From Bacteroidia bacterium (GTDB lineage Bacteria; Bacteroidota; Bacteroidia; J057; JADKCL01), in contig JAXLVK010000013.1 in the NCBI GenBank assembly GCA_046329055.1, positions 17,959-81,958 on the forward strand: a stretch of DNA of 64,000 nt, in the 5' to 3' direction. The notes under the pieces were generated by a model. That model did not search any database. It worked only from the letters and a program-made list of their open reading frames with translations, and was not told the DNA's origin. A program made the translations under genes and the position numbers. This document shows positions 41,208 through 56,802 of this stretch, piece after piece. The number at the start of each line of letters is the position of its first letter. Position 1 is the first letter of the stretch.

Positions 41208-41208
41208 G

Positions 41209-42366: not shown

Positions 42367-42508
42367 ATTGCCTCTGCATCGTTCGTCTCGGATCGCCTCA
42401 AAATTTTCCACCTGAATGCCGGAATCCTTAATTTGAGCAAGGCGTTCCAGGCCATGGCGCCACCTCCATCGGTTTCACCCAGCATGAGCAACTAGGCCCG
42501 CAACTTGC

Positions 42509-43693
42509 ATGATATCCTGGCAAGTCATTGAATTCACCATCGAGGTGCTTGCGCCCGTGACCACCTTTTGCACGTTCCTGGTGGCATGGAAAAGCCGTGG
42601 TCAAGCATGGCCCATCCGCCGGAGGAAACGCCTCTGGATCCTTCCCGGAAGGGTTCCGAAGGCGCTCAAGTTTTTGCTCTCACCCCTGATCGTCGTCGCC
42701 CGGTACGCGAGGGTCTCCCCTGCACTGCCCGTCGCGCTGGGACTGGCTGGCGCACTGGCGCTGATGGGGCTCAGTGATGCCGCGTTCAATTCCCTGATCG
42801 GGTATTTCTTGCTGTTTCCCTTGGCGATGATCCGGGATTTGAAATGGTTCCGCACCCAATTGGAGGCGGGGGCCGCACGCTCCCTCGCACAGCAGATGGA
42901 TTCCAAGCATTCCGAGCCCATCTTGCTCAATGCCGCCTCCGACCCGGAAGCCCTGACCCGGCTTGCCGCGATCCCCGGATTGGAGACCCTGGGCACCGAT
43001 GCAGCATTGCAGGCGCTGGAGGCCCTGAGCCATGACCGCAATGAAAAGGTCGCCTCGCAAGCGCACCTCGCCCTGAGCCAAGCCAAGCTTATCCTCCAAG
43101 GCCATCAATTGGAGGAGACGCCGGGCATCATGGACTTGGTCGAGCGCCACCTCCTGCTGCTGGACCAGCTCCAACGCGACGATACCAATCCCGACGAGGT
43201 CGAACCCATCGTTCTCGAGGTGGAATCGATGCTGGATCGTGCTGCCCGCCAATGCCTTCCTGCCCGGCGTGCGTACCCGGACCTGCTCTGCCAGGCTTGC
43301 CTCACCCGCGCCCGGCAAATGTCCTACAAGACATGGGTATTCGTTCACTGTAGGCATTGCATACGGCATGATTTGTTGCAGGCCGGGGTCAAGCGTGTGG
43401 TGGGCGAGATCGGCGGGGTGATGGATTGGGACTTGAAGGAAGGGCTGCTCAAAATCGGGCTTTGGGACGAGGAGCGCAGGACGGCAAGGGCAGCGGATAT
43501 CGAGGCCTTGCACGTGATTGGGGGCTCCAACCTGAACTATGATTGGGCGGTATCGGCTGTGGTGGAGGCGATGCAGCAGTTTCAATCGGAAATGCCAGAG
43601 GCGCTGCCCATCGAATTGATCGACAATCCATCAATTTCCGCCAATAGTGTGGCACTTCTACGTACTTTGTCTCCGAGACTTCAAATGCCATGA
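42509..43693 (+). CDS. Membrane-anchored HEAT-repeat / C4 zinc-ribbon protein, paralog 3 of 5
   Basis: TM helices (VLAPVTTFCTFLVAW, ALPVALGLAGALALMGL, LIGYFLLFPLAMI). HEAT pair: LTRLAAIPGLETLGTDAALQALEALSHDRNEKVASQAHLAL. Zinc ribbon: LLCQACLT...FVHCRHCIR. Family motifs: GVKRVVGEIGG, IGLWDE, VIGGSNLNYDWAV. Confidence 0.8.
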   Translation: MISWQVIEFTIEVLAPVTTFCTFLVAWKSRGQAWPIRRRKRLWILPGRVPKALKFLLSPLIVVARYARVSPALPVALGLAGALALMGLSDAAFNSLIGYFLLFPLAMIRDLKWFRTQLEAGAARSLAQQMDSKHSEPILLNAASDPEALTRLAAIPGLETLGTDAALQALEALSHDRNEKVASQAHLALSQAKLILQGHQLEETPGIMDLVERHLLLLDQLQRDDTNPDEVEPIVLEVESMLDRAARQCLPARRAYPDLLCQACLTRARQMSYKTWVFVHCRHCIRHDLLQAGVKRVVGEIGGVMDWDLKEGLLKIGLWDEERRTARAADIEALHVIGGSNLNYDWAVSAVVEAMQQFQSEMPEALPIELIDNPSISANSVALLRTLSPRLQMP

Positions 43694-44889
43694 TTGCTTC
43701 CCTCGTCATCGGTGCCATACTGGGCACCATCTCCACAGTGGTGATCTTCCGCTGGGTCAAGAACGGCACCCACCGCCTCACGCAGCAAATGGCGGATGCC
43801 ATTGACCAAAGCTCGGGCAGGGGGGTGGTGAGGACCGCTCGCCGTCAATTGCTGCGCCCGCAGTGGCAGCGCGGCATCACCTGGGTGATCTGGCCCGTGC
43901 TTCCGATCGTGAATCCGGTGTATTATTTCATCGCAGTCGGGCCGGAAGGGCTGGTTTTCGTCCTGTCTTACATCGGCACCTACCTGCTCAGCCTCGTCGT
44001 CGGATTCCATTATTGGGGTCGCGAAATCCTGAATGCGTACACACTCTCCACTGGAAAGGTGGTGGCTGTCAAGCTGGTGCGTTACCAACCCGAACAAGCC
44101 GCCGAGGTGCTATTGGCAGCTTCGCAGGACGCCGATCCCATCCATCGCCTTGCTGTGATCCCCGCCTTGATCGAACTCGGCACCCCGCAGGCAGTCGAGG
44201 CACTCAAGACCTTGCGCGCCGATCCCAGTGAAACGATCGCAGAACCAGCCCGCCAAGGATTGATCCTCCTGGAAGGCTATCTGTTGCATCCCAAAGCTCC
44301 CTACCCTGAGTTGCCGACAACGGTCTGGCGCAAGCCCAACATTGGCGAGGAGGGCGATGAGAACCACGGGGGTCGCGTGAAGCTCCATGACCGCAAGAAG
44401 GCCGTTCAGCTCATGGGAGACCAACAAGTCCTGGAGATTCTGCTCCCGCAATTGCCGCTGCGCCGGGGCTATCCCGCACTCTATTGCCGGGAATGCCATG
44501 CGACCGCGCACCGCTACCGCTTCGGGGAATGGGACTGGGTCGAATGCCGCATTTGCGAGAAGCAAGGCAACCTGGAAATCGGCGTGAAACGGGTGTATGG
44601 CGAAATTGGAGGAGACAGCCTTTGGAAATTGGATGACAAGGGCACGCTCCACCTGCGCCTTTGGGATCCCGACCGCAGCACCGTCCTCCAGGCCGACATC
44701 AATGAGCTTCATGTCATTGGCGGCATGGACATGGACTATGACTGGGCGATCAGCGCGACATTGGAGACGTTGGAGAAGCGCCCCGAGGGATGGAAAGTGG
44801 TCTATCACAATCCGCCACGGTTGGCCCGCAACACCCTGATGCTCCTCCAAGCTGGGGGCCATGCAACACCACCCGGCCAAAAACCCTGA
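43690..44889 (+). CDS. Membrane-anchored HEAT-repeat / C4 zinc-ribbon protein, paralog 4 of 5
   Basis: MIASLVIGAILGTISTVVIF plus further TM helices. HEAT pair: IHRLAVIPALIELGTPQAVEALKTLRADPSETIAEPARQGL. Zinc ribbon: LYCRECHA...WVECRICEK. Family motifs: GVKRVYGEIGG, LRLWDP, VIGGMDMDYDWAI. ATGA overlap with the paralog 3 stop. Confidence 0.8.
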   Translation: MIASLVIGAILGTISTVVIFRWVKNGTHRLTQQMADAIDQSSGRGVVRTARRQLLRPQWQRGITWVIWPVLPIVNPVYYFIAVGPEGLVFVLSYIGTYLLSLVVGFHYWGREILNAYTLSTGKVVAVKLVRYQPEQAAEVLLAASQDADPIHRLAVIPALIELGTPQAVEALKTLRADPSETIAEPARQGLILLEGYLLHPKAPYPELPTTVWRKPNIGEEGDENHGGRVKLHDRKKAVQLMGDQQVLEILLPQLPLRRGYPALYCRECHATAHRYRFGEWDWVECRICEKQGNLEIGVKRVYGEIGGDSLWKLDDKGTLHLRLWDPDRSTVLQADINELHVIGGMDMDYDWAISATLETLEKRPEGWKVVYHNPPRLARNTLMLLQAGGHATPPGQKP

Positions 44890-46100
44890 TGGGAAGCCCT
44901 GACGACTTTCCCATGGAGGCCGCGCTTGCCTTTGGCGCTGCAATCGGGGCGACGTCCGTCCTCGCGGTGACACATTTGTTCAGCTCCGTGCAGCACCGCT
45001 TCATCCGCGTCTGGTGCAAGTACCGTGACAAGCAGGAAGACCGCGCTCTGATGCGTCGCCTGCAATTCGCCTTGGGCACCCACCGGTTGACCTTGCTCCT
45101 TCCCTGGACATTGGGATTCTTGAATCCGCTCAACCTCCTCGTTTTTGATGGCAGCAGCCTCCATTACCTTGGTTGGGGGTCCATTTTGGGCTACTTGGGC
45201 ATTTCCTTGGTGGCCTATCCATTCCAGTTGGGCAAGTCCCTGCGGAATTTCAGGGAGGAATTGGCTTGCGAGGCAGCACACCGCTTGGTCGTGAACACAA
45301 GCCCGCAAGACGCAGAGGCAATCCTGTTGCGAGCCGCGAAATCCGGCCAAACCGAACTCAAAATGGCGGCCACCATCGGCCTGCAACGCCTGGGAACGCC
45401 CGCAGGGAACACAGCATTGGAAGATCTCTGCGCGGACAAGGACCTCCGCATCTCTGTTGCCGCCACCAAGGCCTACACCCGCCTGGTCAAGGCCCTCAGA
45501 GACAAGGCCGTCCGCAGCCTCGCACCCATGCCCCAACTCCTCGCCACCTATGAGGAGGAACGACGGAACGCCAACTTTCGATTGGAACGAGACAATATCG
45601 CCAAGTTCCCGGCCCTGCGCAGCGTCGCCAAGGAGATCGACGACATCACCTATTCACAATTCCCTCTGGTGCGTTCGTTTCCCGATCTTGTCTGCCGCAA
45701 TTGCCACGAATTCGCGCTGATGCAGCGGTTCGAGGAGTGGCGCTGGGTCTATTGTCCCAGCTGCGGAGAAGCAACTGCATTGGTCCCGGGCATCCACAAG
45801 ATCGTCGGGACCATCGGGGCGAAGGAGGACTGGGTCGAGCGGGAAAACACGCTGTATGTGAGCATGTGGGACACTGCCCGGAATGTGCCCATCACGACCG
45901 ATCCCAGCAGCCTGCAAGTCCTCGCGGGTGCGGACATCGATTACGACTGGGCCTTGACGGCTGTCACCGAGCTGATTGCCAACCGCCGACCAACGGGTGG
46001 AAAGGACTTTCCGATTCAGTTGCCCGCTTCGATCACATTGTCTGCGAATACACTGGCGGTGATTCGGGGGCAGGCGTACTTGCTTTTAGTTGGTAGTTGA
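44889..46100 (+). CDS. Membrane-anchored HEAT-repeat / C4 zinc-ribbon protein, paralog 5 of 5
   Basis: The start was taken at M34 of ORF 44790..46100 (MGSPDDFPMEAALAFGAAIGATSVLAV), giving a TGATG overlap with the paralog 4 stop and a length matching its siblings. HEAT pair: LKMAATIGLQRLGTPAGNTALEDLCADKDLRISVAATKAY. Zinc ribbon: LVCRNCHE...WVYCPSCGE. Family motifs: GIHKIVGTIG, VSMWDT, DIDYDWAL. Confidence 0.75.
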   Translation: MGSPDDFPMEAALAFGAAIGATSVLAVTHLFSSVQHRFIRVWCKYRDKQEDRALMRRLQFALGTHRLTLLLPWTLGFLNPLNLLVFDGSSLHYLGWGSILGYLGISLVAYPFQLGKSLRNFREELACEAAHRLVVNTSPQDAEAILLRAAKSGQTELKMAATIGLQRLGTPAGNTALEDLCADKDLRISVAATKAYTRLVKALRDKAVRSLAPMPQLLATYEEERRNANFRLERDNIAKFPALRSVAKEIDDITYSQFPLVRSFPDLVCRNCHEFALMQRFEEWRWVYCPSCGEATALVPGIHKIVGTIGAKEDWVERENTLYVSMWDTARNVPITTDPSSLQVLAGADIDYDWALTAVTELIANRRPTGGKDFPIQLPASITLSANTLAVIRGQAYLLLVGS

Positions 46101-46278
46101 TAGGGGATAGTTGACATTTCTGGGAGGTTCGTCACGATTGGGGTTGGAGATTTTGGCGGCACTTTTGTCCGTTCGGAGGCTTGTGGATTGCGGACAGGGC
46201 TCTCGTTCCTGCTATTTGGCAGGCCTCAAATTGCGGACAATGTGATGTGGGCTGAGGCTTATGTGTTGTAGGCCGCCA

Positions 46279-48093
46279 TCAGCGTTTGAGTGAGCTGAAC
46301 AGGCGTGACAGAAAGCCCTTTTGGCCACCGGCTGCATTGATCTCGTCCTGTCCGAAGCCTAGGTCGAGCAGGGTCTTCTCACGGAGACCATGCACCTCGC
46401 GCATCGCTTGCAAGAGCGCTTTCCGGCCGACCGACCCCTTTTCCAATTCCCTGGGCAGTGCCTTGCCTGTCACAAATGCCGCCAAAACTTGGTAATTCTC
46501 CAGCTTTGGCAGCTCCCATAGCTTGGCCAGCACCCACCAAGCACTTTCCTCTCCTCCGGTCCGCTTCAACCAATCCTCCAGCAATTGATACCAGTCGAAT
46601 GGCTTTTCCAAGAGGCAATCAAAGGCGCCTGCATCCATCGCGATGGAGGTCACGGGAAGGTTTTTGTAATTGAAGGCGTCCGGCACCTTGGCCTTGATGT
46701 ATTCGGCGAGGTTTTCGCGGATGCGGGATTCGTTGGGGATCATGGGCAGCAGGCGCAGGTAATGCTGCAACACTGGCAACAGCTGCGACTTGTGGTGCGG
46801 CCCACGGCGGAGCATGACCGCGAGGGACTGAATGGCTTGATTTTCAGGCACAGCGTCCATCACATCCGGATTCGGCGCCTTGAGGGTCCACATCGCTGTG
46901 AGCAAATGCAGGTTGGGGCTCCCGACCATGACCACTCGGGGCTCGGGCGCCTTGGCCACCACCTCTGGGGTCACGCCCCGGTACAAGATCAAGGATTCGA
47001 TGCCCGCAGCGATTTCCATCATGGGGAAGCCACGCATCCAGCAAGACAATTGGTCATGAACCCCCAAGCCGTCCAACAGTTTGCGTGTCCAGTCCTCGCC
47101 CACCATCGGCACTACGACCGCTTCGTAGAGCTTCCGGATCACGCCCGCATTCACCCGCTCAAATTCGGGATCGCTTGGCATCTCAGGTCCAGTCGGGGAC
47201 TTGCTCACCATCGCTTGGGACAGGGCGTGCATCTCGTTCAGCAGCTTGCGTGGCACCCGTCCATTGCGGGACACCTCCAGCAACCAATGCGAAAATGGAT
47301 CGGTAGGGCTGCCATAGGCACGAATCTCCTCATCCGGCCATATCACTTGCGTTCCCAGCTCCGAAAACATCGCTGGGCGGCCCGTCACAGGTTGGATGTC
47401 ACTGAATCCAAAAAGGCGCAGCGGGCTGAAGAAAATCTTGCCACCGTCAAAGGCATCGTTCCAGCCCAGATTGGCCCGGAGGCTCTCAGGCATATAGACC
47501 GCACAGGCTTCGAATGCCTTTGTCACCTCATCGGGAGTGCCCTTGAGCACCACCGAAAGGTCCCTGTTCTGCGTCTGCGCGACATGGTAGGCCGCCATCA
47601 ACAATTCGCCAGGGGGCGCATCGGCCTCGTCGTTCCATACATCGACGACAGGTGCCTGCACCTCGATCGGTGTGATCTTGCCATTGGCGCGGTCCACTTC
47701 CGGTGAATCGAGCAAGGCATCCATGCTGGGGAACTGAAATGGCGCGATCCGCTCGATCAACGGCATGATCGTGGGAATCGGCCGCCAATCCGCCTCGGCG
47801 ATGAAAAATCCCTCGCAGAGGAAGACACCACCCCGGCCATGTTCGTCCTTCACCTCGGGCAATGGACGCAGGCGCAGGAGGATCATAAAGGTCTCGCCTT
47901 TGATCTTCTTGTAGAGGACGGTGGTCTGCCCCTTGGGGTCCACGCCATCCGGGAAGTGGATATGCGACTCGATTTCCAGTACTTCCTTGCCCGTGATGAG
48001 GTCGGCAGGCAGGAATGCGGATTGGAAGCCCCCTTTTCCGGTCGGGCTTTGGGTCTTCGGCAGACGGGTGTAGATGTACCGATGGACTTTCAT
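46279..48093 (-). CDS. Large GTPase-partner protein, possibly GAP1 (GTPase-associated protein 1)-like, with C-terminal MinD-like amphipathic helix
   Basis: The start was taken at MKVHRYIYTRLPKTQSPTGKGGFQSAF (M54 of ORF 46279..48252), 14 nt after the GTPase stop. The N-terminal 'YT....G.GFQ' and 'D..GR.G.F' (KDEHGRGGVFLCEGF) patterns resemble, as I remember them, the N-terminal domains of the computationally defined GAP1 family. The rest is alpha-helical. The C-terminus is GGQKGFLSRLFSSLKR. The coding call is solid; the family assignment is tentative. Confidence 0.55.
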   Translation of the reverse strand: MKVHRYIYTRLPKTQSPTGKGGFQSAFLPADLITGKEVLEIESHIHFPDGVDPKGQTTVLYKKIKGETFMILLRLRPLPEVKDEHGRGGVFLCEGFFIAEADWRPIPTIMPLIERIAPFQFPSMDALLDSPEVDRANGKITPIEVQAPVVDVWNDEADAPPGELLMAAYHVAQTQNRDLSVVLKGTPDEVTKAFEACAVYMPESLRANLGWNDAFDGGKIFFSPLRLFGFSDIQPVTGRPAMFSELGTQVIWPDEEIRAYGSPTDPFSHWLLEVSRNGRVPRKLLNEMHALSQAMVSKSPTGPEMPSDPEFERVNAGVIRKLYEAVVVPMVGEDWTRKLLDGLGVHDQLSCWMRGFPMMEIAAGIESLILYRGVTPEVVAKAPEPRVVMVGSPNLHLLTAMWTLKAPNPDVMDAVPENQAIQSLAVMLRRGPHHKSQLLPVLQHYLRLLPMIPNESRIRENLAEYIKAKVPDAFNYKNLPVTSIAMDAGAFDCLLEKPFDWYQLLEDWLKRTGGEESAWWVLAKLWELPKLENYQVLAAFVTGKALPRELEKGSVGRKALLQAMREVHGLREKTLLDLGFGQDEINAAGGQKGFLSRLFSSLKR

Positions 48094-48107
48094 GGCCGTT
48101 GCTTTGG

Positions 48108-49172
48108 TTATTTTTTCGCCTTGGGCTTGGGAAGGGACTTGGGCAACTGGGGAATGGCCGCCTTCTTGCCTTTGAACCAAGCCAATAGCCTTTGGAGGAA
48201 GCCCTTGGGAGGTGCGGCAGTGTGCTTTCTCCGGGCAAAATCGAGCACCCAAAGGAAGGGGTCAAGGACGCGGAGGGGATTCATTTTCTCGTCCACCTCA
48301 TTTGCCCCCATTGCGCTGACCACGGTGTAACGGACTTCGAGGAAGTGGTCACGGGCCATGTTCGCGAAGCGGGTGCAGCCGAGCTCTTGACGCAGCCACT
48401 CCTCGATTTTGACGCTGACGAGGCCCAGGTCCAGGATCTTTTCCCCGAGGTTCAATGCGTAGTAGTCGCTCGCGCCTTGGACCAGCCATTGCCGGAGGAA
48501 GGGATTGAGCTTGGCGTCGGGGAGGTCGCTCTTGGTGAAGATGATGATCACCCGCTGGGAGGAGCGGATGTTCGCATTGAGCTTGTCGTCGGCGGCGCGG
48601 ATGTAGGTGTCGAGGAGGCGGGTCATTTGATCGTCCAGTTCCTCGTCCTCGCAGTCCGGGATGCTCATGATGAAGAGCACGGTGTCCGCATGCGCCACGA
48701 AAAATCCCGCCCGGGCGATCTGTGTGGCGTCATTGAAGACCTCACCTGCGGTGTCGTAATAGCCCACAAATGCGTCATCGAAGACGGGCAGTTGGTGGTA
48801 ATGCACCAATGCGGGGTTGGGGAAGTTCGCTGGTGTGGATTCGGGGAGGTCGCCTTTTTCGAAGAGGGGCACCTGCTCGTAGATGATGCGGTGCGTGAAG
48901 TCGTCGAGGCTGCGGAAGTAGTAGCCGTTCCAGAAGTTGCTGAATCGCTTGAGCGTGCTGAACAGCGAGGTCAGATAGACGGTCTTGCCATGTCCGGAGA
49001 ATCCGACGACGCCGACCATGGTACGGAGCATGAGTCCGGAATCGAGGAAGGTCTTGGGGATGTCCGTCCGGCAATTGGGGCATTGCGGCACCATGGTCTT
49101 GGTATCCCGGAGGAATTTCTCGACATGTTGCAGGCAATAGGGACAGCGAAGCGATGGTGTTGGCGCAGGCAT
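48108..49172 (-). CDS. Zinc-ribbon-fused Ras-like (TRAFAC-class) P-loop GTPase with basic/amphipathic C-terminal tail
   Basis: N-terminal C4 ribbon: CPYC...CPNC. G1/Walker A: GFSGHGKT. G3: YYDTAGE (DxxG, Ras-like DTAGE). G4: IIFTKSD (N/TKxD). The C-terminus is PPKGFLQRLLAWFKGKKAAIPQLPKSLPKPKAKK. Confidence 0.8.
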   Translation of the reverse strand: MPAPTPSLRCPYCLQHVEKFLRDTKTMVPQCPNCRTDIPKTFLDSGLMLRTMVGVVGFSGHGKTVYLTSLFSTLKRFSNFWNGYYFRSLDDFTHRIIYEQVPLFEKGDLPESTPANFPNPALVHYHQLPVFDDAFVGYYDTAGEVFNDATQIARAGFFVAHADTVLFIMSIPDCEDEELDDQMTRLLDTYIRAADDKLNANIRSSQRVIIIFTKSDLPDAKLNPFLRQWLVQGASDYYALNLGEKILDLGLVSVKIEEWLRQELGCTRFANMARDHFLEVRYTVVSAMGANEVDEKMNPLRVLDPFLWVLDFARRKHTAAPPKGFLQRLLAWFKGKKAAIPQLPKSLPKPKAKK

Positions 49173-49226
49173 GTGGTGCGTCAGGGGTTATGGGTTCCTA
49201 GGTCGATGATGGGGGTTTCACGTTGG

Positions 49227-49305
49227 ACGACCCCAGCGGGGTCCGAACATATGTAGAACACGTGGATAGATTGGCCACGACCCCAGAGGGTCGCACGCGT
49301 CATGA
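49227..49305 (-). repeat. Two REP hairpin elements, inverted relative to the 49909..50300 array
   Basis: The elements are CGACCCCAGCGGGGTCcgaacATATGTAG and CGACCCCAGAGGGTCGcacgcgtcatg. Their reverse complement matches the CTACATACGTGCGACCCCGCTGGGGTCG unit on the other side of the transposase remnant. Confidence 0.6.
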
Positions 49306-49780
49306 TTCAGCACCATAGCCATCCATTATCCATTGAAACAAGTATTGTTCTTTGAATTCAATCCCAAAATTTCGCAAAAATCCGAGATATTCCTCCCTGA
49401 AGGTTCTCTTCCGGTGATGTTCCTTTTGATTTTCAATGTAAGGGATGATTCGGTTAAGCTGAGACCGTCCGTGGTGGAAAAGCTCCAAACCCTTCTTGCC
49501 ACCGGAATCGTCCACGGACAAATCGGTTTTCATTGATGTACTCGTTGCTTGCCTTCTTAACCTCACGAATCAAATCCGATGGAGAGCATTCTGGTGACAT
49601 TCCCATGGGAAATGCAAATGATCAGGCATTCCATTTATTGCCAGCATCTTTTGCTCCTTTCCTGCACGATACCTGTTATGTATCTGAAAAGGCTTTCCTC
49701 CCATTCCGGAGCAATTAGGGCCTGCCTGAATTTGACTGCGAAAACGAATTGTAATAAATCTGCGAATAGGTATTTGCCAT
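49300..49780 (-). pseudogene. REP-associated tyrosine transposase (RAYT; IS200/IS605 TnpA-like Y1 HUH transposase) remnant with at least 4 frameshifts
   Basis: Pieces sit in three frames: MANTYSQIY / QFVFAVKFRQALIAPEWEESLFRYITGIVQERSK / KMLAINGMPDHLHF (HUH motif) / MGMSPECSPSDLIREVKKASNEYINENRFVRGRFRWQEGFGAF / GRSQLNRIIPYIENQKEHHRKRTFREEYLGFL (catalytic Tyr in YIxNQxxHH). ORF-track pieces are 49570..49806 and 49300..49566. Confidence 0.75.
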
Positions 49781-49908
49781 TGATTGATGGATTTGGATGG
49801 TTGCAAGAACGCGTGCTACTTCAAAAATAGGGAGATTTTGGCAGAAATGGTTGGAAATGCAGACGGATTTTCATCCATGATGGGTAGAATCACGGGAAAA
49901 TGTTTCGA

Positions 49909-50300
49909 GGGCTACATACGTGCGACCCCGCTGCCGGTGCTGTTGGGATGCTTTACGGGCTACATACGTGCGACCCCGCTGGGGTCGGTGCTGGGATGCT
50001 CCACGGGGCTACATACGTGCGACCCCGATGGGTCGGTGTGGGACGCGTTGCCGTGGGGCTACAATACGCGACCCCGATGGGGTCGGTGCTGTTGGGATGC
50101 TTCATGGGGCTACATACCTGCGACCCCGATGGGGTCGGTGTGGGACGCGTTGCCGTGGGGCTATATGCGACCCCGCTGGGGTCGGTGCGGTCGGGATGCT
50201 TCACGGGGCCTATACGGCGACCCCGATGGGGTCGGTGCTGTTGGGATGCTTCATGGGCTACATACGTGCGACCCCGCTGGGGTCCGGTTTGGAACGGTCG
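49909..50300 (+). repeat. REP array: 8 direct copies (about 47-50 bp period) of a palindromic hairpin element
   Basis: The unit is GGCTACATACGTGCGACCCCGMTGGGGTCGGTG(C/T)(T)GTTGGGATGCTTCAYG. The core hairpin is CGACCCC-GMT-GGGGTCG. Two alternating tail variants occur (...GCTGTTGGGATGCTT... and ...GTGGGACGCGTTGCCGTG...). All three plus frames are spuriously open. Confidence 0.8.
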
Positions 50301-52548
50301 CGCCGGGCGATGAACATGAAATCGCTGCCGGGTTCGTTGGCGCCGAATTCGCCGTAGCGGGCTCGGGGATGATGAGGCGCTCGTAGAGGACGAGCTCTGA
50401 GGGTGATGATGCGGTCATGGCCGCCGTAGTTGCGCAGGGCGTCGAGGAATTTGCGGGCGTAGGGGCTGTGGTTGCCGGGGATGCCGTCCGGGGCCGTTCC
50501 TTGCCGCCGCTCGTGGGTAGCGCCTGGTCTTGAATGCGAGTTTCCGGTTGATGAAGTCGGTTTGGGTAACTTCCTTGCCGCCGCCGAGGGATTCGTCACC
50601 GCCACGGTGCCCACCACCACTGGCGATGAAGGGGTCGATGGTCCCACCAGGCATACGTCCATCATGAGGAAGGTATGCTTGCAGGGGGATCGCATTCACG
50701 ATGGTGCGGAGGTTGCTGTGGGCGATGTAGGTATCGTTGCCCTCGTCGTCCTTCTCGGAATCGGTGCAGACCCGTAGCCCTCTCCAAACAACTCGTCGAA
50801 TTGCCGTGCCCAGCGATGAAGATGAGCAATTGGTCGTTGTCGGTATAGGCCTTGCGGGCGTATTCCTTGAGCTTCTTGAGCACGTCCGACCTCGGCTGAT
50901 CGAGATGACCAACTCAGTGTTGAATCCGTAGTTGGTCTCCAACTCCTGTGCGATGGTGCGGCAGTCGTTGACAGGGTTCACGAGGTCGCTCCACTGCGCG
51001 TATTCGTCGGTGGCGATGAAGAGGGCGTAGTCGGTGCCTTGGCGGCGGACGACCTGGTCACCGGACTTGGTGGCGACGCGGATGCCGAAGCGTTGGATCA
51101 GGCCGTCCTCGTTCTTCGCCATGAGGCGAATGTCGTTGTAGCCGGGGTTGAGCGGCACTTCCTGGTCCACAAGGACATCGTACTTGCCCTCGGCGTCACG
51201 CTTGGCTTGGAGCTGGACCTGGGTGTCGTTCACAAGGAGCTTGACCCCGGTGAGCTTGGAATCGCTCTTGATGCCCGCCTTGAATTGGATGCTCTTGGCA
51301 TCCACGGTGATGTCCTCGCCCGCAGGGGTGATCAAGGTCACGACCGGAGGTTGCGGCACGTAGCTCTTCTGGCCCTCACGCACGGTGAGTTGATCCATCT
51401 CGATGAGGTTTTCCCCTTCCAATGCGAAGCCGAGGTTTTGCCCGGGCAGGCTCGTGAAAGGGATTTCAGTCATCCAGATGTCGTTCAAGTAGGAAGTTGT
51501 AGCGGGTCCCCGGTCTTGCCGGATCACGAGCTTGTTGGGGGTGCCGCGACCGCTGAGCATCCCTGGTTGCTGGGGGTCCAATCGACGAGGTCTTGGCGAC
51601 GCCATTCTCTACCCGGCGAACGGCAAAGGAGCCGAGGCTGCGGATCAAAAATTGGTAGCCATTCTGCTCATCGGCCATGGCCCAACCGATGCCGTAGCCG
51701 ACCTCTTGGGATCCGGTCACCTGCTTCATGTGGGCTTCGATCTCGAAATCCCGCTCTGGATTCACGAGGACCTCACGTAGCTTGTAGGTGTATTTGGCGC
51801 CCTTGATGTTTTTCATGCGCATGCGGCCCTTGCCCATGGCGCAGTATGAGCTGTCCACGGTGGTGACGCACCATCCGCGGCTGTTGTCATCGAATCCTTC
51901 GGAAAAGATGGCGGGCATGTCCTGAAGCTCGAGCACTTCGAGGCTCTGGACAGCGATTTCCATTTTTCCATTGAGCATGTAGCCTGCCTTGGAACCGAGG
52001 AAGGTCTTGTTGGGCATGCTCCAAACGAACTGATCGTTCAGGTAAAAGGACATCATGCCGTTCACGTTGCGGAGGCTGAGCTTGTTGACCTCGCCTGCGG
52101 GCTTGATGACTCCGGTGGTTGCAGTGAAGGGTTTGAGCTCCTCGATCGCGCCATGGTTGCGGCGGATCACGCGGTACTGTCCGGCACTGTTGATGTTGAG
52201 TGCGAAGAAGCTCGAATCGTCGGCGGCGCCCCATACGAAACCGAATCCATCGGTGGCGCGGCCAAATTTTTGGGTGAGTTTGGTCTGAATGGTGAAGTCG
52301 GGGCTGCCGTTCAGGGGCAATTCCTCGAGCAGAAAGACGGACACGCCATCGGGGACCCTGCCTTCGAGTTTGTAGTTGCCATCGGCGACGGCGGCGAAGG
52401 CCGTTTCGTCGTCAGCGTCTGTCCAGCCGTGGTGGTTGTCTTTGAAATCCTCCCTGAAAATGACCCTCTCCTGTGCACGGAGCCCGGTCAAGCAACCCGC
52501 GAGGGTCACCAGGAACATGATCAACGATTTTCTCACCATGATGCTCAC
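50258..52548 (-). pseudogene. Secreted caspase-family (peptidase C14) protein with N-terminal jelly-roll-like repeats, disrupted by about 6 frameshifts
   Basis: ORF 51466..52548 carries the signal peptide MVRKSLIMFLVTLAGCLTGLRAQ and repeat domains. ORF 50415..51605 continues through the caspase start DYALFIATDEYAQWSDLVNPVNDCRTIAQEL. Another frame (50662..50883) has the catalytic His segment DQLLIFIAGHG. The sequence returns to GNDTYIAHSNLRTIVNAIP. Another frame (50258..50695) has KHTFLMMDVC (catalytic Cys), HSPYARKFLDALRNYGGHDRIITL and FGANEPGSDFMFI. Confidence 0.7.
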
Positions 52549-52705
52549 AGACTGTAGCTTGAGTTCAAATATAGTGTACGGAGAATTAGAAATTAGAGAT
52601 GAAGAATGAGGAATTAGAAATTCTGGTGTTTCCAGATAGCAGATAGAAGATAGCAGTTAGCAGTTCGACTTTCAGGGATTTGGAGTGCGATCCTTGAAAA
52701 TGGTT

Positions 52706-52778: not shown

Positions 52779-54767
52779 TTACTTCACTTTGGCGATGGGC
52801 ACCATGCCGATGCCGCGCTTGACCATGGTGGGCTTTTGCTTCCAGCTGGTTTGGCCGAGAACTTTGTCGCTCACGTAGTCATTCATTTCTTCGACGGTGA
52901 CGTTGCCGTTGCCGTTTTTGTCGGCCTTGCCGTCCATGGCTTCGAGCATGGCTTGGGCGAAGAGGCTGCCCTTGTCGGGGGTGACGGTGCTCTTCTGCTT
53001 GGCGCTGGTGCTGCTCAGGAAGATGCGGATTTCGTCATCGTTGTCGATCACCTTGCCGAAGTCGGTCTGGACGGCGTCCATGTTGGCATGGCCGATGGTG
53101 GGCGCGCTGGCGTCAGCCTTGGTGGAGTGGCTGGCGTCGAGGAAGTAGAGGGTCGGCGCGCTGTAGCGGCTGATTTCCTCGATCACCCAACGGTTGTCCA
53201 CGGAGGAGACTTCCATTTCGGAGGGGTCGGTCTTCACATCGGTGGGCTTGAGGAAGAAGCTGCCGCCGCTCTCAGCGCCTTGTCCGGCGAAGTAGATGAG
53301 GACGAGGTCTTCCTTGGCAGCCTTGCCCTTCATCTGACGGATGGCGTCTTCGATGTTGGCCTTGGTGGCGTCTTTGTTGCTCAGGACTTTGGTCTTCACG
53401 TCGTTGAAGAGGCGGCCCTTCTGAGCGGTGAAGGCGTTCACCAGGTTGTTGGCGTCGGTGCTGGCGTGAGCGAGGTCGAGGTTGTCGTCGCTGTAGTCGT
53501 CGATGCCGATGGCGAGGACGTGGAGGTCGCGGACCTTGATCTCACGGGCGGGGTTTTTGTACACCACGAAGCGCTCGCCACTGGTGAAGCGGCCCAGGTT
53601 GGTTTCAACTTCGAGGACGATGGAGTTGCCACCCTCGATGAGGGGCAGGGTTTCTTCCACGAAGAAGTCATCGCCGTTGCCTTGCTTGCGGAGCACCACG
53701 TGACCGATTTCCTTGTTGGTCATCTGGTGGTTCAGGCGCAGGGTGAGGTTCTTGATTTCGGGCATTTGCTGGCCCACGCCCGGCTTGAGGCTGAGCTTCA
53801 GGTTGTAGATGGAGTCGGTGACGACGATGTTCTCAGCGGAGGAGCTCCAGTTGATGAGGACCGGGGTGCCGTAGCCGAAGCCACCGCCATCCCAATCGTC
53901 GCCGCGCATTGCCACAGAGCCAGCCTCGAATTGGTCGTAGAAGAGGTTGTTGACGGTGGACTTGGCGTTGGCGCCACGGCCTTTCACAGACTTGCGGGCG
54001 AGCAGGTCGGCGTTGTTGTAGGCGAACTCAGTGGTCTCAGCGAGGATGAGGTCACCGTCTTTTTCCTCGTATTTCTTCATCTCCTTGACGTGGTTGCCGT
54101 CCCAGAAGATGCTCAACTGGGTGTTGAGGCCCACGCGCTGCTCCTTGATCTCGCTCAAGTGGCCGCTGGTGTAGATGTAGGTGGCATTCAGGCCGGGCGC
54201 GTTCATGGCCACGAGTTGGCCGTCGGCGTCATAGGTGTACTGGATGTTCAGGGTCTTGGTGGGGATGCCCTTGGAGAACCAGCGGACGCGGGTCAGCATG
54301 GCGTGGGAGTCGTAGGTGCCTTCGATCTCGCTGTTGTCGGCGTCGTTCTTGAGCACGGACTTGGTCAGGGTACCCTTGCGGTCGTAGTAGAAATACTGAG
54401 CGCTGACGGGCTTGCCAGCGTCCATGGTGCTGACCTTGCGGAGGTGACCCTCGCTGTCGTAGCCGATGTTTTGGACGCGGGTGCCTTCTTCAGCACGGAC
54501 AAGGTTGCCATTTTGGTCAAACTCGAGCATTTTCCGGAAGGTTCCGGTCGCATCGCCCTCTTCCTGCTTGCGGATCTTGAGGACGCCTTTTTCCCTCCAC
54601 TTGTTGTAATTGCCCAGGCTCACTTGCATGCTCGTGGACTCCAACGGGTTGTCCAAAGCCTGCTGCAGCAGCACGTCATTGACGTTTTGCCCGGAGACGT
54701 TGGTGCCCATCAGTACCAGCAATGCCAACAAGGCTGGTGCCGTGATCAGACGCTTCATCATTTTCAT
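52779..54767 (-). CDS. Secreted YD/RHS-repeat plus caspase-like (C14) domain protein lacking both catalytic residues (predicted pseudo-protease)
   Basis: Signal peptide is MKMMKRLITAPALLALLVLMGTNVSGQ (M12 of the ORF). YD-type repeats: FDQNGNLVRAEE, GYDSEGHLRKV, YYDRKGTLTKS, YTYDADGQLVAM. Caspase fold: LHVLAIGIDDYSD...DLVLIYFAGQG (Gln where the GHG His should be) ...TLYFLDASHS (Ser where the DxC Cys should be). Confidence 0.8.
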   Translation of the reverse strand: MKMMKRLITAPALLALLVLMGTNVSGQNVNDVLLQQALDNPLESTSMQVSLGNYNKWREKGVLKIRKQEEGDATGTFRKMLEFDQNGNLVRAEEGTRVQNIGYDSEGHLRKVSTMDAGKPVSAQYFYYDRKGTLTKSVLKNDADNSEIEGTYDSHAMLTRVRWFSKGIPTKTLNIQYTYDADGQLVAMNAPGLNATYIYTSGHLSEIKEQRVGLNTQLSIFWDGNHVKEMKKYEEKDGDLILAETTEFAYNNADLLARKSVKGRGANAKSTVNNLFYDQFEAGSVAMRGDDWDGGGFGYGTPVLINWSSSAENIVVTDSIYNLKLSLKPGVGQQMPEIKNLTLRLNHQMTNKEIGHVVLRKQGNGDDFFVEETLPLIEGGNSIVLEVETNLGRFTSGERFVVYKNPAREIKVRDLHVLAIGIDDYSDDNLDLAHASTDANNLVNAFTAQKGRLFNDVKTKVLSNKDATKANIEDAIRQMKGKAAKEDLVLIYFAGQGAESGGSFFLKPTDVKTDPSEMEVSSVDNRWVIEEISRYSAPTLYFLDASHSTKADASAPTIGHANMDAVQTDFGKVIDNDDEIRIFLSSTSAKQKSTVTPDKGSLFAQAMLEAMDGKADKNGNGNVTVEEMNDYVSDKVLGQTSWKQKPTMVKRGIGMVPIAKVK

Positions 54768-55026: not shown

Positions 55027-55290
55027 GTGCGGCGACTGCGCCTATTTTATGCACATGTCAAGAACGGGCTTTTTCAGGAGTGAAGCGCGCAATTGGGACG
55101 GGCATTGTGAATTGTGAAATAGCGTTGCGCACAAGGTAACTGCGTGAAAGAAATTGTCCTGTTGTAGCGCCATTGAAGCAGGGTCATTTCCCTCCAAACT
55201 GTGTAACGCTGGGCCGTGGATAAAGGGGCAGTCGCTGTCGAAACCTTGGTTTCCAGCCATATATTGACGGTTGGAAAGGAAAATGAACTC

Positions 55291-55977
55291 ATGAAAGCCA
55301 ATCGTCTCCACCACTTAGCTGCCACTATCGCCCTCTGTCTCCTGATGGTCTCGATGCTGCCCGCACAACAGGAATCGACTGCCAAGCTCTCCAATTGGGA
55401 ATTTGGCTTGGAGACCGTCAGGCTGGATTTCAACAAAGCCCGGGTCCTCAATGCCCGCTACACCGATCGGGTGCAAGCGCTTGCCGGGGTGTATGCCCGC
55501 AAGTTCTTCCGCAGGACAGGGTTTCGGTTTGGGCTACAAATGGGCAGGCATCACCACTCGACCCTAGCGGGCATGGTTGTGAACAGCCTGTATGTGGAAT
55601 CCAATTCTGGATTCACTGCTGGAGTTTATGCGGGAGGGCATGTGCAGATCCTTCCCCGCCGCAGTTGGCTGCTTGGGATAGCCGACCTCTCCTTGCAACA
55701 TTTTCAGGGGTATTCGGAGTTCTTCATGGAAGTAGAGCCCCTCTACAGAAAATACGTCTCTGGGATGGATGAGATCACGCTCCGCCTAGGCCTGAGTGCC
55801 CGGTTGCCGATCGGCAAGCACCTGACGATTGGCACCGAGTGGACGATGGCCAATGGTCTCCGGAATCAATGGCTGGATAGCGTTTATGATATTCCGAATG
55901 AACCGAGCCGCAGTTCGTACATGAGTCTGATCACCTTGGAGCCGATGGGAAACCTCATGGTTGCGATACGGCTGTGA
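55291..55977 (+). CDS. Small outer-membrane beta-barrel-like protein, paralog 1 of 3
   Basis: Signal peptide is MKANRLHHLAATIALCLLMVSMLPAQQ. It has alternating hydrophobic strands and shares family motifs with its two neighbours (WE.GLE.VRLD, AG.Y.R+FF.R.GFR.G.Q, LRLGL..R.P..KHL.IG.E). The C-terminus is hydrophobic (MVAIRL). Confidence 0.7.
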   Translation: MKANRLHHLAATIALCLLMVSMLPAQQESTAKLSNWEFGLETVRLDFNKARVLNARYTDRVQALAGVYARKFFRRTGFRFGLQMGRHHHSTLAGMVVNSLYVESNSGFTAGVYAGGHVQILPRRSWLLGIADLSLQHFQGYSEFFMEVEPLYRKYVSGMDEITLRLGLSARLPIGKHLTIGTEWTMANGLRNQWLDSVYDIPNEPSRSSYMSLITLEPMGNLMVAIRL

Positions 55978-56067
55978 GGACTGTGGCGCCTCTGGGAAAG
56001 GGGCCAAGAAGGTTGTGGTCGCCATGATTCTGGCTATTTGCAGTGTTGGGGATTCTCTGGTATGTTT

Positions 56068-56784: not shown

Positions 56785-56802
56785 ATCCAAAACGGACATT
56801 CC

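What the first reader, a model, noticed from the sequence alone, without database searches (positions are those of the whole stretch)
46279..49172. Zinc-ribbon Ras-like GTPase plus GAP1-like partner operon, convergent on the paralog array: candidate membrane-associated conflict or signalling system
**The operon (seen in sequence).** This is a two-gene minus-strand operon with a 14-nt spacer.
- The first product has an N-terminal C4 ribbon (CPYC..CPNC) fused to a small TRAFAC-type GTPase: G1 GFSGHGKT, G3 DTAGE, G4 TKSD.
- The second is a ~600-aa mostly helical protein whose N-terminus (HRYIYTRLPK...GKGGFQSAF ... DEHGRGGVF) resembles the 'YT...G.GFQ ... GR.GN.F' pattern.

**Family assignment (established knowledge, from memory).** I associate that pattern with the computationally defined GTPase-associated protein 1 (GAP1) family. 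That family belongs to predicted NTP-dependent bacterial conflict systems that remain experimentally uncharacterised.

**Link to the paralog array (inference).**
- Both proteins end in amphipathic GFLxRLF-type helices, so both probably work at the inner face of the membrane.
- The five HEAT/Zn-ribbon paralogs encoded immediately opposite are anchored in that same membrane.
- Zinc ribbons occur in both the GTPase and the paralogs.
- Together, 39999..49172 may form one system: diversified membrane receptors, a GTPase switch and a GAP1-like scaffold. I know of no described system with this composition.
Basis: partly seen in the sequence, partly recalled or inferred. Interest (0 to 1): 0.85.

Follow-up and report, generated by a model that had tools for sequence, protein, structure and literature searches.

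The report
DO-GTPase/GAP1 switch with HEAT-zinc-ribbon partners
This is a rare Bacteroidia version of a predicted but untested bacterial "conflict" switch, a zinc-ribbon GTPase with its GAP1 partner, which here keeps company with membrane-anchored HEAT/zinc-ribbon proteins and exported caspase-like proteases; the GAP1 partner is predicted to fold like eukaryotic DENN-type GTPase regulators.

Summary
Window 48108..49172(-) encodes a zinc-ribbon TRAFAC GTPase that passes Pfam DO-GTPase2 (40.9 bits, cut-off 27). A 604-aa partner follows 14 nt downstream, at 46279..48093(-).

The partner hits no Pfam, NCBIfam or PADLOC model. A profile of its family nevertheless retrieves proteins of which 59 of 67 carry Pfam GAP1-N2 (hhalign 99.9 %, E 3e-36). 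It is therefore a divergent GAP1 of the GTPase-centric conflict systems of Kaur et al. 2020.

The link to the five convergent HEAT/zinc-ribbon paralogs also holds. That family lies beside the pair in 9 of 12 loci with enough flank. One of these is an archaeal contig, and the family also occurs in one canonical GAP1-N2 locus.

- Two signal-peptide caspase genes sit upstream. One lacks the catalytic Cys. The other is frame-broken here, next to an IS200 remnant and a REP-like array.
- A trypsin gene replaces the caspases in one locus.
- The HEAT proteins have almost no periplasmic part.

The partner's AlphaFold model best matches DENN-family proteins (C9orf72 complex, DENND1B, FLCN–FNIP2 complex, DENND10).

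Verdict: a new variant of a known, experimentally uncharacterised kind. Interest 0.6.

The parts
48108..49172 (-). DO-GTPase2-family TRAFAC GTPase, 354 aa. N-terminal C4 zinc ribbon at aa 10-34 (49071..49145). P-loop GFSGHGKT, Walker B DTAGE with the family's conserved Glu, and G4 TKSD. Near-C-terminal amphipathic basic helix KGFLQRLLAWFKGKK (about 48162..48206).
   Evidence: ORF. Pfam PF19993 at 40.9 bits against a cut-off of 27. Motifs are invariant in 24 homologues. No significant NCBIfam or PADLOC match.
46279..48093 (-). Divergent GAP1 (GAP1-N2-like), 604 aa. N domain with longin-like beta-beta-alpha-beta-beta-beta-alpha order (aa 1-130, 47704..48093). Alpha/beta M domain (aa ~161-300, 47194..47613). 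Helical C region (aa ~301-590). MinD-like amphipathic tail KGFLSRLFSSLKR (46282..46323). Starts 14 nt after the GTPase stop.
   Evidence: ORF and spacer. (family alignment). (homology to Pfam-positive GAP1-N2/-M proteins). (AF2 model, pLDDT 88.9). (DENN-family proteins are the top structural matches).
39999..41207 (+). HEAT/Zn-ribbon paralog 1 (402 aa). Three N-terminal TM helices, cytosolic HEAT repeats, CxxC...CxxC ribbon and a conserved C-terminal domain. Orthologous to the 401-aa gene of L001 (44 % identity).
   Evidence: AF2 pLDDT 86.8. NCBI names it 'HEAT repeat domain-containing protein'.
41209..42366 (+). HEAT/Zn-ribbon paralog 2 (385 aa). Its start lies 1 nt after the paralog 1 stop.
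42509..43693 (+). HEAT/Zn-ribbon paralog 3 (394 aa).
43690..44889 (+). HEAT/Zn-ribbon paralog 4 (399 aa). Overlaps the paralog 3 stop by 4 nt.
44913..46100 (+). HEAT/Zn-ribbon paralog 5. The likely start is the ATG at 44913 (395 aa); the ORF is listed from 44790. Orthologous to the 400-aa gene of L001 (38 % identity). Its end lies 178 nt from the end of the convergent GAP1 gene.
   Evidence: TM1 at the N-terminus only when the start is 44913.
50303..52563 (-). Ortholog of the ~750-aa signal-peptide caspase (Peptidase_C14). Its relatives keep an intact FAGHG / MDVCFGG dyad. Here it is split over three reading frames by about 8-10 frame changes.
   Evidence: tblastn. Ortholog motifs. Pfam on the L001 ortholog.
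52779..54767 (-). ~662-aa signal-peptide caspase-like protein with YD/RHS-like N-terminal repeats. The catalytic Cys is replaced (LDAS) in all orthologs. In this window the His is also replaced (FAGQG). Probably a pseudo-protease.
   Evidence: ORF. (Peptidase_C14, 68 bits). (motif alignment and signal peptides).
49300..49566 (-). Remnant of an IS200/IS605 TnpA (Y1 transposase) gene, inserted between the caspase and GTPase genes.
   Evidence: tblastn to an annotated tnpA of a Bernardetia plasmid, 52.5 % identity, E 9e-14. No Pfam or NCBIfam hit.
49909..50296 (.). Array of ~7.6 copies of a ~50-bp unit carrying a GCGACCCCGATGGGGTCGG-type palindrome (REP-like), next to the TnpA remnant.
   Evidence: Tandem Repeats Finder.

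Best explanation
**What it is (well supported)**
- A chromosomal GTPase-centric 'conflict-type' module of the DO-GTPase/GAP1 class.
- Its core is a zinc-ribbon DO-GTPase2 gene, co-directional with and 14 nt upstream of a divergent GAP1 (N2-like).
- Two further parts are conserved around this core. Neither is mentioned for the GTPase-centric systems in the main text of the 2020 description (text search only; the figures are not held).
  - (a) One to five convergently encoded, fast-evolving proteins with 3 TM helices, cytosolic HEAT repeats, a zinc ribbon and a conserved C-terminal domain.
  - (b) Upstream exported peptidases. Usually these are a caspase with an intact dyad plus a Cys-less caspase paralog. 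In one locus a trypsin takes their place.

**How it most likely works (inferred)**
- All three cytosolic parts sit at the inner face of the cytoplasmic membrane. The GTPase and GAP1 attach through C-terminal MinD-like amphipathic helices. The HEAT proteins attach through TM helices.
- GAP1 has a longin-like N domain followed by an alpha/beta domain, an arrangement that resembles DENN modules. It controls the nucleotide state of the GTPase.
- The invariant Arg87 lies in the D-x-x-G-R-x-G loop. It is a candidate arginine finger, as in the C9orf72-SMCR8 and FLCN GAPs.
- The HEAT/Zn-ribbon paralogs take the place that FNIII-repeat or GASH proteins hold in other DO-GTPase systems. They would be diversified specificity or sensor subunits. 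Their conserved ribbon and C-domain would dock on the constant GTPase-GAP1 core. Their variable HEAT and TM parts would meet different ligands at the membrane.
- The switch then licenses the exported peptidases to cut envelope targets. The outcome would be growth arrest or suicide of an infected cell, or envelope remodelling.

**State in this genome**
- The output arm looks decayed. Caspase-2 is frame-broken and caspase-1 lacks both catalytic residues.
- The sensor arm is expanded to five paralogs.
For: **Shown by computation**
- The GTPase passes Pfam DO-GTPase2 above the cut-off. It has the Walker-B Glu and the N-terminal ribbon that Kaur et al. give as family traits (PMC7159879).
- GAP1 homology:
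  - The A1 profile gives 282 hits among 1.84 billion representatives.
  - Among 67 distant hits, 59 carry Pfam GAP1-N2 and 7 carry GAP1-M.
  - hhalign gives 99.9 %, E 3e-36.
  - The reverse HMM scores 104.8 bits.
  - Two relatives are fused to DO-GTPase2.
- The conserved block caspase-caspase-GTPase-GAP1-(convergent HEAT/ZnR) occurs in L001 and L004-L008. The genes outside the block differ between these loci.
- An exported trypsin replaces the caspases in L015.
- The HEAT/ZnR C-domain protein also lies near the GTPase and GAP1 in two distant loci:
  - an archaeal-type contig, L016 (hhalign 99.5 %, E 2e-22; its GAP1 matches at 100 %, E 4.5e-50);
  - a canonical GAP1-N2 locus, L010 (98.5 %, E 3e-15).
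- Identity between the window and L001 is 83 % for the GTPase, 50 % for GAP1 and 38-44 % for the HEAT proteins. Flanking PhoD and MBOAT are at 63-67 %.
- HEAT copy number ranges from 0 to 5.
- TM topology and amphipathic tails.
- DENN-family chains are the top four PDB matches of a pLDDT-88.9 model.
- The predicted strand and helix order of residues 1-128 is beta-beta-alpha-beta-beta-beta-alpha-alpha. This is the longin order, by my own knowledge.
Against: - There is no experimental work on any DO-GTPase/GAP1 system in the searchable literature. 'Conflict system' is itself a prediction.
- PADLOC has no model that matches.
- The locus is syntenic with housekeeping neighbours (PhoD, MBOAT) across relatives. 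It shows no integrase or GC shift. It therefore behaves like a stable chromosomal trait.
- All linked peptidases carry signal peptides, whereas the GTPase, GAP1 and the HEAT domains are cytosolic. No route for the signal across the membrane is evident.
- Three of 12 loci lack the HEAT protein (L003/L012, L011, L018), and L009 has a solo GTPase.
- The HEAT genes are convergent to the pair and so are not co-transcribed with it.
- DENN similarity rests on Foldseek E-values of 9e-4 to 9e-2 with low TM-scores (0.18-0.35) and no sequence signal.
- The caspase-2 gene is broken here, so the module may be inactive in this organism.
Confidence: 0.55

Rival explanations
1. The module is not an anti-invader system. 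It is an envelope-signalling or surface-maintenance module of this Bacteroidia lineage. A membrane-peripheral GTPase switch with its longin/DENN-like regulator, comparable in logic to MglA-MglB, and with HEAT scaffolds would control the production, sorting or activity of exported caspase-like and trypsin-like proteases and neighbouring surface proteins.
For: - Synteny with PhoD and MBOAT is stable, with no mobile-island signature.
- Every linked peptidase has a signal peptide.
- An ECF sigma factor with an OMP_b-brl_2 gene pair and a LIC11966-family surface protein lie just upstream in L004, L005, L007 and L008.
- PADLOC gives no hit.
Against: - GAP1 and the HEAT proteins evolve much faster than the GTPase and the flanking genes.
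- HEAT copy number varies from 0 to 5.
- Caspase and trypsin swap at the same position.
- The distribution is very sparse and patchy. Only 5 of 185,579 species genomes carry it, yet it is also present in an archaeon and in Desulfobacterales.
- The core belongs to a class defined by variable effectors (PMC7159879).
- These are hallmarks of conflict systems rather than housekeeping.
Confidence: 0.25
2. The HEAT/Zn-ribbon array is functionally unrelated to the GTPase-GAP1 pair. The adjacency would be inherited synteny within one Bacteroidota lineage. Under this reading the real system is only caspases + GTPase + GAP1.
For: - The orientation is convergent, so the genes are in separate transcripts.
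- The HEAT genes follow PhoD co-directionally, 31 nt after its stop.
- L003/L012, L011 and L018 have the pair without HEAT.
- In L008 the HEAT gene is about 4 kb away.
Against: - The family's ribbon and C-domain recur next to DO-GTPase2/GAP1 in an archaeal-type contig (L016) and in a GC-rich bacterial contig (L010). Gene order and neighbours there are quite different.
- Every placed family member lies within 7 kb of a DO-GTPase2 gene.
- The family is as rare as the partner family, with 13 members against 17 word-indexed hits.
- L015 keeps GTPase-GAP1-HEAT while the caspases are gone.
Confidence: 0.1
3. In this particular genome the locus is a decaying remnant with no current function.
For: - Caspase-2 is interrupted by about 8-10 frame changes.
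- Caspase-1 has lost both catalytic residues.
- An IS200/IS605 remnant and a REP-like array are inserted between the caspase-2 and GTPase genes.
Against: - The GTPase, GAP1 and all five HEAT genes are full-length. They keep every family-invariant residue.
- The frame changes are confined to about 1.3 kb, and amino-acid identity within the pieces is normal. A local assembly error in the MAG is therefore equally possible.
Confidence: 0.1

Closest known systems
GAP1-N2-type GTPase-centric (DO-GTPase) conflict systems, Kaur, Burroughs, Iyer & Aravind, eLife 2020 (PMC7159879); Pfam PF19993, PF20013, PF20014
   Same: - A DO-GTPase2 GTPase with an N-terminal zinc ribbon and a Walker-B Glu.
- A GAP1 gene immediately downstream, homologous over its N and M domains.
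- Predicted action at the membrane.
- A fast-evolving third component and variable linked genes.
   Different: - Pfam's GAP1-N2 model does not detect this subfamily.
- There is a single ribbon rather than the usual two, and a single GTPase gene.
- No FNIII-repeat protein is present, and there are no tubulin, HSP70 or kinase themes.
- Instead there are TM-anchored HEAT/Zn-ribbon paralogs and exported caspase or trypsin peptidases.
- The host is Bacteroidota, not one of the phyla named as typical for N2 systems.
GAP1-N1-type DO-GTPase systems (same paper)
   Same: - They are common in Bacteroidetes.
- Their effectors include peptidases of the caspase and trypsin superfamilies.
- They have a helical third component (GASH).
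   Different: - The N domain here groups with N2-type proteins and the GTPase with DO-GTPase2.
- There are no GASH, GAAD or EAD domains.
- There is only one GTPase gene.
- The peptidases are separate secreted proteins. They are not fused or adaptor-coupled to GAP1.
Eukaryotic DENN/longin GTPase regulators (C9orf72-SMCR8, FLCN-FNIP2, DENND1B-Rab35, DENND10)
   Same: - They are the best structural matches of the GAP1 model.
- Both have a longin-like N domain followed by an alpha/beta domain and a helical domain.
- Both are partners of a small TRAFAC GTPase.
- Both have a conserved Arg in a longin-domain loop and a conserved small-residue-Pro motif before strand 2.
   Different: - There is no detectable sequence similarity.
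- TM-scores are low.
- Whether the partner acts as a GAP or a GEF is unknown.
- Homology as opposed to convergence is untested.
- DENN-like folds in prokaryotes have been mentioned only in passing (PMC13392464).
MglA-MglB of Myxococcus (bacterial Ras-like GTPase with a roadblock/longin-type GAP)
   Same: A bacterial small GTPase regulated by a partner with a roadblock/longin-type fold.
   Different: - The GTPase family is different.
- MglB is a small single-domain dimer.
- That system controls polarity and motility and has no peptidase or HEAT components.
MinD membrane-targeting sequence (recalled: E. coli MinD ends ...KKGFLKRLFGG)
   Same: The GAP1 tail KGFLSRLFSSLKR, and the family consensus G.LGK.KRLFGR, are near-copies of this amphipathic motif.
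   Different: This is only a short motif. The proteins are otherwise unrelated, and membrane binding has not been tested here.

Membership tests
DO-GTPase2 (Pfam PF19993) | Match to the family HMM above the curated cut-off | tested here: met
   40.9 bits against a cut-off of 27, E 2.5e-10, residues 52-225. Nearly all listed homologues carry PF19993.
DO-GTPase2 (Pfam PF19993) | TRAFAC GTPase motifs with a conserved Glu in Walker B, often with 1-2 N-terminal zinc ribbons (PMC7159879) | tested here: met
   GFSGHGKT, YDTAGE and TKSD. C10, C13, C31 and C34 are invariant or nearly invariant in 24 sequences. There is one ribbon, not two.
DO-GTPase2 (Pfam PF19993) | GTP binding and hydrolysis | not testable with these tools
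   Biochemistry is needed. No solved relative was found by sequence.
GAP1 (GTPase-associated protein 1) | Encoded directly downstream of, or fused to, a DO-GTPase gene | tested here: met
   14-nt spacer in the window. The same order holds in all 13 distinct partner-type loci that reach the GTPase gene. Two relatives carry a DO-GTPase2 fusion.
GAP1 (GTPase-associated protein 1) | Match to Pfam GAP1-N2 (PF20013) or GAP1-M (PF20014) | tested here: not met
   There is no hit at E<=1 for the protein, or at E<=10 for any of the 18 family members.
GAP1 (GTPase-associated protein 1) | Homology to bona fide GAP1-N2/-M proteins by profile methods | tested here: met
   - hhalign of A1 against A3 gives 99.9 %, E 3e-36, over 464 columns. 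In A3, 59 of 67 sequences are Pfam GAP1-N2 and 7 are GAP1-M.
- The HMM of A3 scores the window protein at 104.8 bits.
GAP1 (GTPase-associated protein 1) | Three globular domains (N, M, C) | tested here: met
   The AF2 model (pLDDT 88.9) has a beta-rich N domain (1-130), an alpha/beta M domain (~161-300) and a helical C region (301-590).
GAP1-N2-type system (whole system) | A linked protein with rapidly evolving FNIII repeats | tested here: not met
   No fn3 hit was found in any neighbouring gene of the window or its relatives. HEAT/Zn-ribbon proteins occupy the variable third-component position.
Anti-phage defence system (PADLOC catalogue) | Match to a catalogued defence-system protein model | tested here: not met
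   Only noise-level hits with E>=0.0085.
DENN / longin-DENN GTPase regulators | Tripartite uDENN (longin) - cDENN - dDENN fold | tested here: inconclusive
   - The top four PDB Foldseek hits are DENN-family chains: 7mge_C (E 9e-4, prob 0.99), 3tw8_A (9e-3, 0.98), 6ulg_N (3.5e-2) and 8p0v_M (8.9e-2).
- TM-scores are only 0.18-0.35.
- There is no sequence-level signal.
- Domain-wise superposition was not possible.
Peptidase_C14 (caspase) effectors | Catalytic His-Cys dyad | tested here: inconclusive
   - Caspase-2 orthologs keep FAGHG and MDVCFGG, but the window copy is frame-broken.
- Caspase-1 has LDAS in place of the Cys in nearly all orthologs (LDAG in L007). In the window it has FAGQG as well.

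The most novel reading that the evidence does not exclude
**The reading**
- GAP1 proteins of DO-GTPase systems are prokaryotic longin-DENN-type regulators of small GTPases.
- They would use an invariant loop arginine (R87 here) as C9orf72-SMCR8 and folliculin do.
- Together with a membrane-anchored HEAT/zinc-ribbon subunit they would form a three-part membrane switch shared by bacteria and archaea.

**What it would imply**
- The DENN-type way of regulating GTPases would be placed in prokaryotic conflict or signalling systems, outside and possibly before the eukaryotic endomembrane machinery.
- A new, diversifying HEAT-based sensor family would be defined.
Probability: 0.3. Interest if true: 0.8.

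Novelty: new variant of a known kind. Interest (0 to 1): 0.6.

Why it matters
- DO-GTPase/GAP1 systems were predicted in 2020 to be a large class of NTP-dependent conflict systems. I found no experimental follow-up in the searchable literature.
- This locus defines a compact subtype that Pfam's GAP1 models miss.
  - It adds a third component that recurs from Bacteroidota to a methanogen-type archaeal contig. This component is a TM-anchored HEAT/zinc-ribbon protein, expanded here to five paralogs.
  - It also pairs the cytosolic switch with exported caspase or trypsin peptidases, which raises the question of how the signal crosses the membrane.
- The predicted DENN-like fold of GAP1 gives a concrete, testable mechanism: GAP or GEF action through a longin-type domain and Arg87.
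- If it reflects homology, that fold links a prokaryotic conflict module to the eukaryotic C9orf72, folliculin and DENN regulators.
- The subtype is small enough to reconstitute, with a GTPase of 354 aa, a GAP1 of 604 aa and HEAT proteins of about 400 aa.

Tried and rejected
**Direct library searches**
- The partner and its 17 relatives gave nothing useful in Pfam, NCBIfam or PADLOC.
- A sequence search of the PDB with the GAP1 and GTPase profiles gave only noise.
- Foldseek of the GAP1 model against viral structures (BFVD) gave nothing below E 0.08.
- Foldseek of the HEAT/ZnR model against the PDB matched only generic HEAT/ARM repeats. The ribbon and C-domain have no solved counterpart at whole-chain level.

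**Locus scans**
- The metagenome scan with close HEAT orthologs found nothing.
- The metagenome scan with the GAP1 family found only one 1.2-kb fragment.
- As a result, a census from the HEAT side could not be made.

**Other checks that gave nothing**
- The promoter and terminator scan of 45900..50500 was below chance expectation.
- The convergent intergenic region 46095..46285 folds no better than shuffles, z = -1.2.
- The supplement of the 2020 paper held as text has no mention of HEAT.

**Ideas considered and rejected**
- A housekeeping GTPase ortholog: there is no NCBIfam equivalog.
- HEAT proteins as extracellular receptors: the periplasmic loops are only a few residues long.
- Recent tandem amplification of the paralogs: they are as divergent from each other (about 25 %) as from orthologs elsewhere, and H1 and H5 have separate orthologs in L001.

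Full report
**1. The observation**

The window carries two adjacent minus-strand genes.
- The upstream gene is 48108..49172 and encodes 354 aa.
- The downstream ORF is listed from a TTG at 48252. That start would overlap the first gene.
- The ATG at 48093 gives a 604-aa protein beginning MKVHRYIYTRL.
- The sequence between the TAA of the first gene and this ATG is 14 nt.

- The GTPase has CPYC...CPNC, GFSGHGKT, DTAGE and TKSD. These positions are invariant or nearly so in 24 homologues.
- The partner has YIYTRL, SP..K.GFQSAF and DEHGRGG, which are conserved in 18 family members.
- The GTPase has KGFLQRLLAWFKGKK about 17 residues before its basic C-terminus, and the partner ends in KGFLSRLFSSLKR. 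The pattern is family-wide.
- The partner tail has the highest hydrophobic moment in that protein.
- From memory, the tail is nearly the E. coli MinD membrane-targeting sequence (KGFLKRLFGG).

**2. Identity of the two proteins**

The GTPase:
- It passes Pfam DO-GTPase2 (PF19993) at 40.9 bits against a cut-off of 27.
- It has no significant NCBIfam or PADLOC match, so it is not a housekeeping GTPase.

The partner:
- It gave nothing in Pfam, NCBIfam or PADLOC. None of its 17 word-indexed relatives gave anything either, even at E<=10.
- A profile of the family searched against 1.84 billion representatives gave 282 hits.
- Of the 67 more distant hits, 59 carry Pfam GAP1-N2 and 7 carry GAP1-M.
- Two closer hits are fused to DO-GTPase2.
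- hhalign between the two alignments gives 99.9 %, E 3e-36 over 464 columns.
- An HMM built from the Pfam-positive set scores the window protein at 104.8 bits.

The partner is therefore a divergent GAP1 with an N2-type N domain. This is the pairing that Kaur et al. (PMC7159879) define as the core of GTPase-centric conflict systems.

**3. Surroundings**

Other contigs carrying the pair show a conserved block. In order it contains:
- a ~665-aa caspase-like protein;
- a ~750-aa caspase;
- DO-GTPase2;
- GAP1;
- on the opposite strand, one to three ~400-aa genes homologous to the window's five paralogs.

The genes outside the block differ between loci.

Both caspases have signal peptides.
- The ~750-aa protein keeps the FAGHG/MDVCFGG dyad.
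- The ~665-aa protein has Ser (Gly in L007) in place of the catalytic Cys in every ortholog. In the window it also has Gln in place of the His.

In L015 an exported Trypsin_2 peptidase stands where the caspases are. A swap of peptidase type at a fixed position is what one expects of a variable effector slot.

The window differs from its relatives in three ways.
- The ~750-aa caspase gene (50303..52563) is cut by about 8-10 frame changes.
- It is separated from the GTPase gene by 1.1 kb instead of about 0.1 kb.
- That gap holds an IS200/IS605 tnpA remnant and a ~50-bp REP-like tandem array.

**4. The HEAT/zinc-ribbon family**

Sequence and structure:
- All five window paralogs and nine relatives share four invariant cysteines and a conserved C-terminal domain.
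- Hydropathy and the AF2 model (pLDDT 86.8) give three N-terminal TM helices with a strongly basic first loop. The N-terminus is therefore outside, and the HEAT, ribbon and C-domain are cytosolic.
- Almost nothing is exposed to the periplasm, so these are membrane-anchored cytosolic proteins and not ectodomain receptors.
- The ribbon and C-domain are the most conserved parts (33-38 % mean identity). The TM region and the linker are the least conserved (17 %).
- The paralogs are old. H1 and H5 each have their own ortholog in L001.

The link to the GTPase pair is supported beyond lineage synteny.
- The family is present in 9 of 12 partner-type loci with enough flank: the window, L001, L004-L008, L015 and L016.
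- It is absent from L003/L012, L011 and L018.
- L016 is an archaeal-type contig. Its GTPase clusters at 90 % identity with a Methanothermobacter thermautotrophicus protein.
- In L016 a 2-TM HEAT protein with the same C-domain lies 6 kb from DO-GTPase2 and a partner-type GAP1, in a different gene arrangement. hhalign gives 99.5 %, E 2e-22 for the HEAT protein and 100 %, E 4.5e-50 for the GAP1.
- A 712-aa HEAT protein with the same C-domain sits in a canonical GAP1-N2 locus, L010 (98.5 %, E 3e-15).
- A search of the 2020 paper's main text finds no HEAT protein mentioned for the GTPase-centric systems; the figures are not held.

**5. Rates and distribution**

- Between the window and L001 the GTPase is 83 % identical, GAP1 50 % and the HEAT proteins 38-44 %. 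PhoD and MBOAT are 63-67 % identical.
- The same ranking holds in all loci.
- Within GAP1 the N domain is the most conserved (59 %) and the helical C region the least (35-39 %).
- The partner subfamily was found in only 5 of 185,579 species genomes, all Bacteroidota MAGs. Relatives nevertheless occur in Desulfococcaceae and in an archaeon.
- The window itself is an NCBI 'Bacteroidia bacterium' MAG contig of 82.7 kb. Both proteins are annotated there as hypothetical.

**6. Structure of GAP1**

- The AF2 model is confident (pLDDT 88.9).
- Residues 1-128 have the strand and helix order beta-beta-alpha-beta-beta-beta-alpha-alpha, which I recognise as the longin order.
- An alpha/beta domain and a long helical region follow.
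- The four best PDB matches are all DENN-family chains:
  - a chain of the C9orf72-SMCR8-WDR41 complex (E 9e-4, prob 0.99);
  - DENND1B bound to Rab35 (E 9e-3);
  - a chain of the FLCN-FNIP2 complex (E 3.5e-2);
  - DENND10 (E 8.9e-2).
- TM-scores are low (0.18-0.35), as expected if the domain orientations differ. There is no sequence signal. I rate fold similarity as probable and homology as open.
- The 2020 paper does not mention DENN or longin.
- A 2026 paper notes DENN-like folds in prokaryotes only in passing (PMC13392464).
- Longin-type GAPs use an arginine finger next to a Gly-Pro motif that precedes strand 2 (PMC12290439).
- GAP1 has an invariant Ser-Pro before strand 2 and an invariant Arg87 in the D-x-x-G-R-x-G loop between strands 4 and 5. 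This is a lead and not a result.

**7. Mechanism**

Shown:
- the parts listed above;
- their conservation;
- their predicted location at the membrane.

Inferred:
- GAP1 sets the nucleotide state of the GTPase.
- The HEAT/ZnR paralogs are the diversified third component. They dock through their constant ribbon and C-domain and sense through their variable parts.
- The exported peptidases are the output.

The weakest step is how a cytosolic switch reaches secreted peptidases. The only membrane-spanning parts are the HEAT proteins.

The main rival is a non-defence envelope-signalling role. It is favoured by stable synteny, the signal peptides and the nearby ECF-sigma/OMP and surface-protein genes.

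**8. Verdict**

- The core is a member of a known, computationally defined and experimentally untouched kind.
- The composition is a new variant, made up of the HEAT/ZnR third component, the exported caspase pair and a GAP1 subfamily that Pfam does not see.
- Interest 0.6.

Noticed in passing
window 50303..52563 (-): The ortholog of the catalytically competent ~750-aa caspase is split by about 8-10 frame changes within ~1.3 kb, including around the MMDVC catalytic motif. Identity within the pieces is normal (66-88 %) and all neighbouring genes are intact. This is either a pseudogene or a local MAG assembly error.
   Followed up: partly
window 49300..49566 (-) and 49909..50296: An IS200/IS605 tnpA remnant (52.5 % identity to an annotated tnpA on a Bernardetia plasmid) lies next to 7.6 copies of a ~50-bp unit with a GC-rich palindrome. 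Together they look like a RAYT/REP-type insertion between the caspase and GTPase genes.
   Followed up: partly
window 52779..54767 (-) and orthologs in L001, L003-L008: The ~665-aa caspase-like protein has Ser (Gly in L007) in place of the catalytic Cys in every ortholog, and it always pairs with an active-looking caspase. This resembles a pseudo-enzyme/enzyme pair. Both carry signal peptides.
   Followed up: partly
window 55216..57492 (+): Three tandem paralogous ~230-250-aa proteins with signal peptides lie just beyond the caspase genes. They have no Pfam hit, and the one tested against NCBIfam (55216..55977) has none there either. Their function is unknown.
   Followed up: partly
L003/L012 12093..18950 and L011 4371..10820: In two MAGs the position of the HEAT/Zn-ribbon genes is taken by a >2100-aa ORF. 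In L003 this ORF carries eCIS_core, TNT and YwqJ-deaminase domains, so it is a polymorphic toxin.
   Followed up: no
L010, L016, L019: Distant DO-GTPase2 loci share another conserved set. It comprises a Fer4_12/radical-SAM-like ~205-aa gene directly upstream of the GTPase, an AAA+ (AAA_2/AAA_5) ATPase of ~545-617 aa, and two unknown proteins of about 350-370 and 200-210 aa. This may be a further subtype of GTPase-centric system, present in bacteria and in a Methanothermobacter-type archaeon.
   Followed up: no
L004, L005, L007, L008 (upstream of the caspases): An ECF sigma factor paired with an OMP_b-brl_2 gene recurs next to the block in L004, L005, L007 and L008. A ~300-aa homologue of the L005 LIC11966-family surface protein accompanies it in L004, L005 and L006. 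None of these is present in the window.
   Followed up: partly
L009 10001..11071: A DO-GTPase2 gene 52 % identical to the window's stands alone between unrelated genes. It has no GAP1, caspase or HEAT neighbour.
   Followed up: no
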